Shown: positions 60,226 through 63,268 of the stretch, piece after piece | Layout: each line of letters starts with the position of its first letter | How positions within the stretch are numbered: the first letter of the stretch is position 1 | Assembly (NCBI GenBank): GCA_964016885.1 | Contig: OZ024753.1 | Span: 4,278,001-4,342,000, forward strand | Direction: 5' to 3' | From: Eledone cirrhosa | Taxonomy: Eukaryota | DNA: 64,000 nucleotides | Program-made: the position numbers and the translations under genes | Notes under the pieces: model-generated | Seen by the model: only the letters and a program-made list of their open reading frames with translations | Told to the model about the DNA's origin: nothing | The model's database searches: none

Positions 60226-60283
60226 ATACTATCATCATTTCAATGACCGGGTTCCGTATGAATCCGGTGATATCATCAGGTAT
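60226..60283 (-). ncRNA. Type I hammerhead ribozyme in a TA-flanked insert (about 60030-60447)
   Basis: ATAC-CTGATGA-T-ATcACCGG...CCGGTcAT-T-GAAAT.GATG.ATA-GTAT. Confidence 0.6.
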
Positions 60284-60442
60284 TCGAAATATAACAAAGG
60301 AATATATAAAATCCATGGGTCCGAAAATCAGAGACAGAGAGGACGACTGACCAACTAGCTGCTTTCGCCTCGGTCAGTCGCCCTCACGTGATGGCAACTC
60401 GGTCTACTAATGACCATCTGGTGAAGGGGCGAAGGTAAATCC

Positions 60443-60474
<32 letters not shown>

Positions 60475-60481
<7 letters not shown>

Positions 60482-60939
60482 CGAATATTCTATGTCTATA
60501 TTCACATATATATCGCTATTTCAGAGCATTTATTCCAATTTCTAATTTCTGCCGGACCGGCAACCGCTCTTTCAAACCAGTTCCTGTACACAGCTAAGTA
60601 TTCTATAAGTCTCTAGCTGTGTCATTCTCGATAAAAGCACTGGATATGTAGTCCTGATGATTTCTAACGAGAATGAAACGCGTAGATTACTTCCCTTGCT
60701 TTTATCGAGAATCTAATTGTAATACGTGACGTATTCTATTCTATAGCGATTAGGTCTTCAAAATGTTTATTATAAACATACAGAATATTTTCGAATATTC
60801 TATGTCTATATTCACATATATATCGCTATTTCAGAGCATTTATTCCAATTTCTAATTTCTGCCGGACCGGCAACCGCTCTTTCAAACCAGTTCCTGTACA
60901 CAGCTAAGTATTCTATAAGTCTCTAGCTGTGTCATTCTC
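60475..60939 (+). mobile_element. 1.5-mer tandem repeat (310-bp period) with hammerhead: retrozyme/pLTR-like
   Basis: 60475-60629 is identical to 60785-60939; the hammerhead lies in the intervening half. Confidence 0.75.
60648..60690 (+). ncRNA. Minimal type I hammerhead ribozyme
   Basis: GTAGTC-CTGATGA-T-TTCT.AACG.AGAA-T-GAAA-CGCG-TA-GATTAC; predicted cleavage after GUA (60684); outer perfect 16-bp stem 60624-60639/60697-60712. Confidence 0.82.
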
Positions 60940-62602
60940 ATTTCATTTCTGCTCACTATCACGTATATGATATTGATACATCACATCTGAAAATTGTCAT
61001 GTATATTATCAACACTTACATTCAAATAAAAAAACAAAAATGGAATAACATGGTAATAGACATACACATTTGTCTGCGACTAAGATCCTGCAAAACATTG
61101 CCTTTCCGGAATCTCCCATAGTGAACATGTGTGTTTGCTAATTATATTTTTTGAGTGAGTGAGTATACGCACATGAGATACAAACAGTTGGTTTAATTCC
61201 ATGTACAGAATAGATTTTTGTGTTCATCAGATGGCGCCATTCTCATGATTTCATCTATTTATGATGAACATTTTACTATATATAAACATAACCACACGCA
61301 CATGAGCTGCAGATATAATAACATACACACCTAGATACGATTTTTGTAAAGAGTGTAAATACGTAAGAGAGTGATGCGTCTTAACGGAAACCATGAAATA
61401 ATTTGAATATAATAATAGCACAGGTGTTTTATGTGAGAGGGTTGTGTCATTCTCACTGATAAAGGCCCTGGCTGGAGTCACGTTGATATGAGGTGGATTG
61501 GTTACTCCTATTTCCTAGCATATCTGACTCTAGCATATCTAATTAGTTTGCATTTCCTAGCATATTTAATTAGTTTGTGAATTAGTGAGGCAGAATGCAT
61601 CGTAGGAAAGCATTATCCAATAAATAGGTAGCCGCAAGTATAGTATTGACAGGTCAAATACCACACCAGAAAGAAAGAAAAATAATGATAATATTTATAA
61701 TAGTAATATCAATAGCAATATTAATAACAATAATAATATGACCAACATATAAGCACAGGTAAGACAATTATATGATATCTAGGAATTAACAAACCAGACA
61801 GAGTCCAACAAATATACATTAAATAATCTATTAAGAAGGAAAATCATACACGCATTAGATTAATACTTAAAGTTATTAAATGCAAAATATCAAACGTAAT
61901 AGGCACTTAACGTCTAGACTTGCCGGTAATATTTTACAATTATTAGATTCGGAATTCAACGTTAGGTGAATTACCAATACTACACATAAACAGACTTAGA
62001 AGAATCGCATTTTTTCCGATTTAGATACTATCATAAAATATATACTATATGACTAGGAATATATCTAGGAAAGGATGAAAGGAAATTGATACAATATGTT
62101 TACACAACTGTTTACATTTCAAAGGCGAAAATGCGTATGAAAAGAGGCTCGGTAGACGGTGACGGATGTGAAAAATAATAAAATGATAGGTAAAAAACAA
62201 AGCGACCTCTATATGTTCAGTACATGATTTAACTGAAAGATAATGACACGGATAAATAGAATTTCCCGATAAAAATCCAAAGTTTCCCTGTTAGGAACTG
62301 TTAAAATCACGTAATATTGAATAATATTAAATATAAGCAGTGTGTATTCTGAGATATGAAAGTAGTAGACATTTATAAGGTAACTCCCAGATGCCTTTTA
62401 CAAGTATTTCTTTTTATATTGCATGAAATTGAACGATAGCAGGTGGATGACGTAACAGTTTCACATTGTTTATTACTTCTCTCTCTAACCCTATTCCCGC
62501 GCTCTCTCTCTCACTATATAGTATTATTATTATTTATTCATACATCACAACAGACCTATCAACGCGTCTAGAATATCGCATTATATATATATATATATAT
62601 AT

Positions 62603-62800
62603 ACGTAGGTCCCGGGTTGAGTCGGGGATAACCACAGTAAGTAAGGTACTCAATACATGGCAGAGTAAAATTTTTTTATATTTTATAGAAGGAGCTTCTA
62701 CAGGACTAGTACTGTTTCATTCAGATGAAATCTTCAGGAAGAGCTTCCTGAAGATTTCATCTGAATGAAACAGTACTAGTTCTGTAGAAGCTCCTTCTAT

Positions 62801-62808
<8 letters not shown>
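62603..62808. mobile_element. Fold-back family F: 132-bp palindrome of hammerhead cores
   Basis: 62677-62808 is a palindrome with 1 mismatch and a 2-nt centre; each arm reads CTGAAGA-T-TTCA.TC.TGAA-T-GAAACAGTA. Confidence 0.75.
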
Positions 62809-62852
<44 letters not shown>

Positions 62853-62856
<4 letters not shown>

Positions 62857-63268
62857 GATAAATATACAAGGGTGTGTATGATTGTGTATAGAAGATTATA
62901 TTAATAAAAGAAATTCCAACTTTGTCCGATTTGCTCGTTTTATTTACAATCCTTTAAAATTTATAATGGTATTATAATGAAATAGTATGATAGAATATTA
63001 AATGTTAAGTGTTAATTGAACAAGTACTTTCATGCTTTCGCAATCTTCAGGTTCATAATGTGTGGTGACAGTCAAGTTTACAATTTTCAACACAGTTGAA
63101 GATTGCGAAAGCATAAAAGTTGAAGATTGCGAAAGCATGAAAGTACTTGTTCAATTAACACTTAACATTTAATATTCTATCATACTATTTCATTATAATA
63201 CCATTATAAATTTTAAAGGATTGTAAATAAAACGAGCAAGTCAGACAAAGTTGGAATTCCTTTTATTA

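What the first reader, a model, noticed from the sequence alone, without database searches (positions are those of the whole stretch)
60226..63055. Four unrelated hammerheads within 3 kb all use a U-U pair at the base of stem II
Seen: 60226-60283(-), 60648-60690(+), 62748-62775(+, mirrored on -) and 63017-63055(-) share no flanking similarity. All read CTGA(T/A)GA-T-[stem II]-T-GAAA, i.e. U10.1-U11.1 instead of the usual purine-pyrimidine pair. The same T..T appears in the remnants at 30861 and 4929. Inference: a lineage-specific hammerhead subtype conserved across many families, which descriptor searches that demand a 10.1-11.1 base pair would miss.
Basis: partly seen in the sequence, partly recalled or inferred. 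Interest (0 to 1): 0.75.

Follow-up and report, generated by a model that had tools for sequence, protein, structure and literature searches.

The report
Tolerated U·U hammerheads in Penelope retroelements
The four motifs are real hammerhead-shaped (predicted self-cutting) RNA ends of four different jumping-gene families, and their shared U·U mismatch is the commonest of several forms at that position in this animal genome, likely a tolerated variant, already described in other animals and not a lineage-specific subtype.

Summary
Observation confirmed. All four motifs, plus one mirror copy, are complete type I hammerhead shapes with U10.1·U11.1 (5 found, 0.045 expected per shuffled window). 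Each belongs to a different high-copy family (2,400-17,200 exact copies): a Hydra-type Penelope-like element (62748), a Neptune-type one (63017), a 310-nt tandem retrozyme (60648) and a ~3-kb non-coding unit (60226). Genome-wide, U..U cores exceed the control by about 126,000, canonical G..C by about 46,000. U·U is one state among several (32 of 103 motifs in an unbiased 1.1 Mb; G·U 19, A-U 19, C·A 13, G-C 7), and one subfamily of the 60648 family spreads with A-U. It is not lineage-specific or new: it is published for natural hammerheads (Perreault 2011), for 14 of 26 Hydra-clade rows from three phyla (Craig 2021), and for an axolotl retrozyme shown to cleave (Cervera 2020). Searches that demand the pair miss 57 of 103, but the 2014 descriptor already allows it. 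Cleavage was not tested here. Earlier scan notes cover neighbouring features of these families in this genome; none of those listed is on U·U.

The parts
60226..60283 (-). Hammerhead A: type I, U10.1=60272, U11.1=60242, long stem II with a C·C mismatch at step 4. Stem III reads ATGATGAT here, palindromic ATGATCAT in other copies. Predicted cut after 60230.
   Evidence: 2,379 exact-pattern copies, U10.1 in 100 of 100 listed
60015..60335 (-). Fragment of family A, a 2.4-3.1 kb tandem unit in which no PLE ORF was found (likely non-autonomous)
   Evidence: 85-90% identical to L251/L252; no Hydra- or Neptune-type hit inside L251-L258
60648..60690 (+). Hammerhead B: type I, U10.1=60661, U11.1=60674, palindromic stem III ACGCGT. 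Predicted cut after 60684.
   Evidence: two copies co-fold into the dimeric hammerhead
60478..60939 (+). About 1.5 units of a 310-nt tandem retrozyme (family B) next to (TA)n
   Evidence: 155-nt direct repeat at spacing 310; 99% identical to arrays elsewhere; 17,160 copies in arrays of period 310-311
62741..62793 (+). Hammerhead C: U10.1=62755, U11.1=62766, 4-bp stem III with ACTAGT in the loop. Predicted cut after 62786.
   Evidence: 2,430 copies, U·U in 99 of 100 listed
62695..62741 (-). Mirror copy of hammerhead C; the inversion point lies in the 5' strand of stem I
   Evidence: (I6)
62604..62806 (.). Head-to-head 3' ends of a Hydra-type Penelope-like element (family C) between (TA)n; the minus arm carries the longer tail
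   Evidence: 97-100% identical to L232; endonuclease ORF about 2 kb upstream, collinear in L231 and L232
63017..63055 (-). Hammerhead D: U10.1=63043, U11.1=63032, palindromic stem III AGTACT, U17
   Evidence: 6,101 copies, U·U in 98 of 100 listed
62836..63288 (.). Head-to-head 3' ends of a Neptune-type Penelope-like element (family D); the plus arm (63121-63288) lacks C3 and the 5' strand of stem I
   Evidence: (I1); RT+GIY-YIG ORF ends 340-450 nt upstream in other copies
4929..4975 (+). Family F motif: U·U with a fixed U4A core (CAGAAGA); further copies at 4763-4813(-), 16814-16864(-) and 26094(+)
   Evidence: Hydra-type ORF upstream in L059 and others

Best explanation
The four motifs are type I hammerheads at the 3' ends of two Penelope-like retroelements, a retrozyme and a non-coding unit, and U10.1·U11.1 is likely a tolerated, still-functional variant that arose repeatedly and was then multiplied by retrotransposition. 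Shown: the anatomy, the family assignments, the copy numbers and the spectrum of states at this position. Inferred: the RNA cuts after H17, weakly as a monomer and better as a dimer through the self-complementary stem III, and yields unit-length, probably circular templates that a PLE RT/GIY-YIG protein inserts into (TA)n. Inferred: the pair stacks on the sheared A9·G12 pair, where purine-pyrimidine pairs and U·U are accepted and pyrimidine-purine pairs are disfavoured. AT-biased mutation would move families from G-C to G·U or A-U, each one step from U·U.
For: Unbiased 1.1 Mb (110 stretches): 103 motifs, 0 in the reversed control; U·U 32, G·U 19, A-U 19, C·A 13, G-C 7, other 13. By cluster (34), 10.1-11.1 has 17 R-Y and 0 Y-R pairs, whereas the next pair has 18 and 16 (the clusters are related, so p=0.0003 is optimistic); U·U is the commonest mismatch (10 clusters). 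Genome-wide excess over control: U..U about 126,000, R..U about 88,000, G..C about 46,000, U..R about 6,500. Family B spreads with U·U at 13 and A-U at 4 of 17 listed loci. U·U occurs on Hydra-type (C, F, G), Neptune-type (D) and non-autonomous (A, B, E) families. B arrays have units identical within an array (0-1 differences, 0-4 between arrays) and fixed 3' ends at 139 and 163-165 nt after the cut site. C>T/G>A changes run at 2.9-3.6% against 1.2% for the reverse. Published: U·U supports more cleavage than any other mispair (Perreault 2011 citing Ruffner 1990); axolotl HHR_Amex2 with U·U cleaves 22% as a monomer, much more as a dimer, and gives circular RNA in vivo.
Against: No cleavage or expression data for this genome. 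U-A pairs are rare, not absent: two families with a U-A base make up about 23 of the first 100 U..R matches listed (their stems I and III were not checked). U·U is the largest class, more than mere tolerance might predict, so an advantage is not excluded. Family F spreads with a U4A core, and catalytic mutants did not affect insertion of the Anolis PLE in vitro, so cleavage may be dispensable. For 10 of 32 U·U motifs a shifted register with a bulged U11 gives as many contiguous pairs. Repeated origin rests on motif classes and an unresolved tree, not on a rooted test. In co-folding, copy A did not adopt the dimeric hammerhead.
Confidence: 0.68

Rival explanations
1. U·U is positively selected: it tunes cleavage down or makes it depend on a protein (the element's own RT/EN or a host chaperone), so that cutting happens only in the transposition complex.
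For: Commonest state (32 of 103, 10 of 34 clusters). Found on two PLE protein types. Kept while every other stem II pair changes between families. The Anolis PLE hammerhead cleaves only with protein.
Against: An A-U subfamily of B makes arrays as long as the U·U ones. G·U, A-U and G-C families are also very abundant. The axolotl U·U ribozyme cleaved better than its sister family (22% against 6%; the two also differ in helix III).
Confidence: 0.14
2. U·U is an inherited mark of one PLE clade (Hydra), and the four motifs share it by descent or by exchange of the hammerhead module.
For: 14 of 26 Hydra-clade rows in Craig 2021 File S2 have it; families C, F and G here are Hydra-type.
Against: Family D is Neptune-type. 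Hydra-type ORFs here carry A-U, G·U and C·A as well. The three U·U Hydra-type families do not group in the endonuclease tree, though its base is unresolved. Axolotl and probably D. willistoni elements have it.
Confidence: 0.1
3. These motifs no longer cut. The fold is kept as a recognition handle for the RT, which leaves 10.1-11.1 free to drift.
For: U4A is fixed in a 23,562-copy U·U family; catalysis was not needed for insertion in vitro; stems are weak and folding z-scores are unremarkable.
Against: Both catalytic boxes and NUH are intact in A-D. The allowed states at 10.1-11.1 are not random. B arrays look like repeated copying of a unit-length template.
Confidence: 0.07
4. Chance matches in AT-rich DNA.
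For: Window GC is mostly 12-36% per 2 kb.
Against: 5 against 0.045 expected; 20-fold over control genome-wide; thousands of exact copies per family with 0 in controls.
Confidence: 0.01

Closest known systems
Axolotl retrozyme hammerhead HHR_Amex2 (Cervera and de la Pena 2020, PMC7229834; passages and section 15 read)
   Same: Type I, U·U at the base of helix II, short helix III, tandem repeats of about 350 nt, tens of thousands of copies; closest to family B (310 nt)
   Different: Tested in vitro and in vivo there, untested here; here U·U spans many unrelated families, and B arrays are head-to-head with a PLE-type tail
Hammerheads of Hydra-clade Penelope-like elements (Craig et al. 2021, PMC8557442; passages, File S1 Hydra sheet and File S2 read)
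   Same: ctga(t/a)gat-[stem II]-tgaa in 14 of 26 rows (Hydra, sea cucumber, sea louse); self-complementary helix III; (TA)n targets; CxCX5C linker as in family C
   Different: Tabulated, and not discussed in the passages I read; the octopus row there (Hydra-1_oBim) is not U·U; 3' UTRs here reach about 2 kb; family D is not Hydra-type
PLE hammerheads with palindromic helix III (Cervera and de la Pena 2014, PMC4209133; main text parts 1-2 of 4 and supplement file 2 read)
   Same: Type I, dimer-type helix III, single or inverted copies from truncated PLEs; the Hydra row has U·U (same sequence as Craig's Penelope-1_HM) and the D. willistoni row probably does (read from PDF token order); the descriptor allows extra N10 and N11
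   Different: Their consensus is an extra nucleotide plus G10.1-C11.1 with GAAANNUH; only 2 of 103 motifs here fit that descriptor exactly, because helix III and loop 2 are longer
Natural U10.1-U11.1 core variant (Perreault et al. 2011, PMC3088659; passages and section 8 read)
   Same: Same mismatch at the same position, said to be the most active mispair (citing Ruffner 1990, which I did not see)
   Different: Treated as a rare variation; here it is the commonest state, about 2.7 times G-C among short-stem motifs

Membership tests
Hammerhead ribozyme, type I | CUGANGA and GAAA boxes plus NUH cleavage triplet | tested here: met
   All four; H17 = A, A, A, U
Hammerhead ribozyme, type I | Three helices around the core, helix I open | tested here: met
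   Stem I 4-7 bp, stem II 2-4 contiguous bp above U·U, stem III 2-4 bp; A is the weakest
Hammerhead ribozyme, type I | Consensus R10.1-Y11.1 (G-C) pair | tested here: not met
   U·U in all four; a published, tolerated exception, so it does not exclude membership
Hammerhead ribozyme, type I | Match to an Rfam hammerhead model | tested here: not met
   No hammerhead family among 19 hits at E<=10 in 60050-63400
Hammerhead ribozyme, type I | Self-cleavage after H17 | not testable with these tools
   No bench test possible; no run on record as RNA was listed
Hammerhead ribozyme, type I | Loop 1-loop 2 tertiary contact | not tested
   Not examined
Penelope-like element | RT plus C-terminal GIY-YIG ORF upstream of the hammerhead | tested here: met
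   Family D: Pfam RVT_1 and GIY-YIG, linked in 15 ORF-hammerhead rows, some of them the same genomic place. Family C: endonuclease end only, collinear in 2 loci. Not found for A or B.
Penelope-like element | Inverted 5'-truncated copy, (TA)n target, tail on one end | tested here: met
   C and D are head-to-head in the window; B arms end at 139 and 163-165
Hydra clade (family C) | CxCX5C linker, no CCHH in the endonuclease, (TA)n insertion | tested here: met
   L232 fragment begins CNCPDKTTC; placed by motifs and similarity to own-genome Hydra-type ORFs, without published reference sequences
Hydra clade (family D) | CxCX5C linker, no CCHH | tested here: not met
   P0002 has CX4CXXC, a CCHH-type endonuclease and RYLDD, which fits Neptune/Nematis as described by Craig 2021; the exact clade was not tested by tree
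Non-LTR retrozyme (family B) | Tandem 170-400 nt low-GC non-coding units, each with a type I hammerhead | tested here: met
   310-311 nt, 34.5% GC, arrays of up to 17 units listed
Non-LTR retrozyme (family B) | Expressed as linear and circular RNA | not testable with these tools
   Only contigs from runs of unrecorded type
Box C/D k-turn (considered for GAU/UGA) | U at L3 (N7), 4b:4n G:C and a canonical stem beside the bulge | tested here: not met
   N7=U in 21 of 32 U·U and 49 of 71 other motifs; the next pair is G-C in 0 of 10 U·U clusters

The most novel reading that the evidence does not exclude
U10.1·U11.1 next to the sheared A9·G12 pair is a selected switch, evolved independently in Hydra-type, Neptune-type and non-autonomous elements of one host. 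It makes cleavage depend on a protein (the element's RT/EN, or a host factor such as the 15.5K k-turn binder, since GAU/UGA matches the box C/D signature). The genome would then hold over 100,000 protein-gated ribozymes and a natural mutational scan of this position.
Probability: 0.1. Interest if true: 0.7.

Novelty: new member of a known kind. Interest (0 to 1): 0.27.

Why it matters
The variant is known, so the value is in scale and method. In this genome the textbook G-C pair is a minority (7 of 103 sampled motifs), and a search that demands a base pair at 10.1-11.1 loses more than half of the hammerheads. The many families give a natural ranking of the states allowed next to the general base G12, which agrees with the mutagenesis cited by Perreault 2011. 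Family B offers a U·U / A-U pair on a nearly identical background (3-4 differences in 310 nt), a ready test of whether the mismatch changes rate or protein dependence. That bears on the open question of what PLE hammerheads do.

Tried and rejected
Rfam scans: no hammerhead hit; the whole-window list was swamped by microsatellite/miRNA noise and only 150 of 405 rows were shown. Single-strand folding z-scores were uninformative. CpG decay of C11.1-G12 as the route to U11.1 is not supported: CpG transitions 3.6% against 2.9% at other C/G sites. The box C/D k-turn idea has no support from N7 or the next pair (the U:U propensity of box C/D is from PMC5689011 passages). Single ORF links were rejected as nested or chance neighbours: L016 ORF to families G and A, L042 ORF to family E, L111 ORF to family C. 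The endonuclease tree of 22 fragments left the base open. No RNA holder was listed. Contigs of three runs of unrecorded type close on the 310-nt unit, which tandem DNA would also give, so this says nothing on expression. P0002 had no PDB hit and P0001 no Pfam hit. Lunse et al. 2017 and Ruffner et al. 1990 could not be read and may describe U·U further; supplement file 1 of PMC4209133 was unreadable. The host species was not tested; earlier notes call it octopus-like.

Full report
1. Observation. A descriptor with both boxes, three stems and NUH finds five motifs in the region: A 60226-60283(-), B 60648-60690(+), C 62741-62793(+) with its mirror 62695-62741(-), and D 63017-63055(-). In each, the first and last base between CTGANGA and GAAA are T and T, with 2-4 contiguous pairs above them. 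A slightly stricter count gave 5 in the window and a mean of 0.045 in 200 locally shuffled windows. The flanks of A-D are not similar to one another (best E 0.06). Of the two 'remnants', 4929 is a U·U motif with a CAGAAGA core, and 30861 lacks the second box (GATC) and is not confirmed. Rfam found no hammerhead in 60050-63400 at E<=10.

2. What each motif belongs to. The window is G000:C13:4278001-4342000 of a 3.0-Gb genome. D has 6,101 exact copies. In longer copies an ORF ends 340-450 nt upstream (15 ORF-hammerhead rows, some the same genomic place). It has Pfam RVT_1 and GIY-YIG, a CX4CXXC linker and a CCHH-type endonuclease, so it is a Neptune-type PLE by the motifs given in Craig 2021. 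C has 2,430 copies. A Hydra-type endonuclease with a CxCX5C linker lies about 2 kb upstream, collinear in L231 and L232, and the UTR is shared by other C loci. B has 17,160 copies in tandem arrays of period 310-311, usually head-to-head. Units differ by 0-1 bases within an array and 0-4 between the five arrays compared, and in seven array loci elsewhere the arms stop at 139 or 163-165 nt after the predicted cut site. That is a retrozyme with the one-sided tail described for PLEs. The window's own copy runs on to position 255. A has 2,379 copies and sits in a 2.4-3.1 kb tandem unit in which neither ORF type was found. C and D are head-to-head in the window and flanked by (TA)n.

3. How common U·U is. 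Core-to-core patterns with 8-30 free bases gave, against reversed controls: U..U 132,835 / 6,652; R..U 113,165 / 25,406; G..C 56,043 / 9,851; U..R 32,715 / 26,224. These are pattern counts without stem checks. In 110 stretches chosen without regard to content (1.1 Mb), a full descriptor with CTGANGA cores found 103 motifs and 0 in the reversed sequence: U·U 32, G·U 19, A-U 19, C·A 13, G-C 7, A..C 5 (mostly an extra A plus G-C), other 8. In 34 clusters U·U leads in 10 (two pairs of these are probably the same family), G·U 7, A-U 5, G-C 5, C·A 3, other 4. Paired bases are R-Y in 17 and Y-R in 0 clusters, while the next pair is 18 against 16. The clusters are related, so this is indicative only, and the genome-wide list does show two U-A families (about 23 of 100 rows). 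Within families the state is stable (C 99 of 100, D 98 of 100 U·U; A U10.1 in 100 of 100) except in B, where 34 of 100 listed copies, 4 of 17 loci, are A-U.

4. Mechanism. Shown: anatomy, families, spectrum of states. Inferred from the published relatives: cleavage after H17, weak as a monomer and better as a dimer. Co-folding of two copies gives the dimeric hammerhead for B, C and D but not for A, whose stem III palindrome carries a change. Inferred: the products are unit-length, probably circular templates for a PLE protein that inserts into (TA)n. From established hammerhead structure (my own knowledge, no call), 10.1-11.1 stacks on the sheared A9·G12 pair. Perreault 2011 states that U·U supports more cleavage than any other mispair. 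Mutation among copies is AT-biased (C>T/G>A 2.9-3.6%, reverse 1.2%, in 136 rows of four families) with no clear CpG excess. Drift from G-C to G·U or A-U and on to U·U, filtered by what the core tolerates, explains the pattern without a special function. Against this: U·U is the largest class; there are no activity data; a 23,562-copy U·U family carries U4A; and catalysis was dispensable for insertion of the Anolis element in vitro (PMC11167929 passages).

5. Comparison with what is known. Perreault 2011 (PMC3088659, section 8) names the U10.1-U11.1 mismatch in natural hammerheads. Cervera 2014 (PMC4209133, supplement file 2) has it in the Hydra row and probably the D. willistoni row, and its descriptor allows extra N10 and N11. 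Craig 2021 File S2 has it in 14 of 26 Hydra-clade rows from Cnidaria, Echinodermata and Arthropoda, beside 7 G-C, 4 G..U and 1 U·C rows by my count. Cervera 2020 (PMC7229834, section 15) reports about 60,000 axolotl copies with U·U that cleave and give circular RNA. A search for 'hammerhead' with 'U10.1' returned only Perreault, and 'hammerhead, octopus, ribozyme' returned nothing on this point. I found no paper giving U·U as the leading class of a genome in eight searches, but Lunse 2017 was not available. I also saw part 1 of 5 of bioRxiv 10.64898/2026.07.22.740005 (retrozymes derive from PLE pLTRs) and passages of PMC6765202.

6. The descriptor claim. Of 103 sampled motifs, 46 have a paired base and 7 have G-C, so a search that demands the pair loses 57. 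The published relaxed descriptor does not demand it, and Craig 2021 recovered U·U motifs with it. Its GAAANNUH form would still fit only 2 of 103 here, for other reasons.

7. Verdict. A real, abundant feature and a new set of members of a known kind. It is not specific to the lineage, not a single clade and not universal in this genome. The most novel reading not excluded is a selected, protein-gated switch (about 10%). Interest 0.27.

Noticed in passing
window 4929(+), 4763-4813(-), 16814-16864(-), 26094(+): Family F has a fixed U4A core (CAGAAGA) together with U·U and U17: 23,562 exact-pattern copies, A4 in 95 of 100 listed, and 4 of the 5 U4 rows are made by head-to-head junctions. A Hydra-type ORF lies upstream. 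Earlier scan notes already report it.
   Followed up: partly
window 26367-26402(-): Hammerhead with the covariant U3-A8 core and a canonical G10.1-C11.1 pair; eight more copies of this family in the 1.1-Mb sample.
   Followed up: partly
window 62741-62744 and family C genome-wide: In many family C head-to-head pairs the inversion point lies within about 2-10 nt of C3, inside the 5' strand of stem I (gaps of 4-21 nt between the cores in the list). Reverse transcription may stall or fold back there.
   Followed up: no
L002:3062-5598; G000:C1:5738332-5752438: Other tandem retrozyme-like arrays of period about 466 nt: one U·U family (E; a decayed copy at window 47190(-)) and one G-C family with over 30 units.
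   Followed up: partly
L248-L250, L019, L010, L158, L170: Family B arms end at fixed positions 139 and 163-165 nt after the cut site, a tail of about 25 nt on one end as in PLE internal initiation.
   Followed up: partly
L042, L043, L044, L059, L304: Three clusters with C10.1·A11.1, two of them with 50-105 nt stem II arms.
   Followed up: no
window 63372-63486 / 63791-63905: A further inverted repeat, with CTGATGA...GAAA at 63725-63752 and a weak stem; not classified.
   Followed up: no
window 28635(-), 28803(+), 45224(-): Decayed hammerheads of the long-stem family with ATAT(A/G)TAT stem III; first box damaged.
   Followed up: no
window 33250-33314(-): tRNA-like Rfam hit (RF00005, 36.5 bits, above the gathering score).
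   Followed up: no
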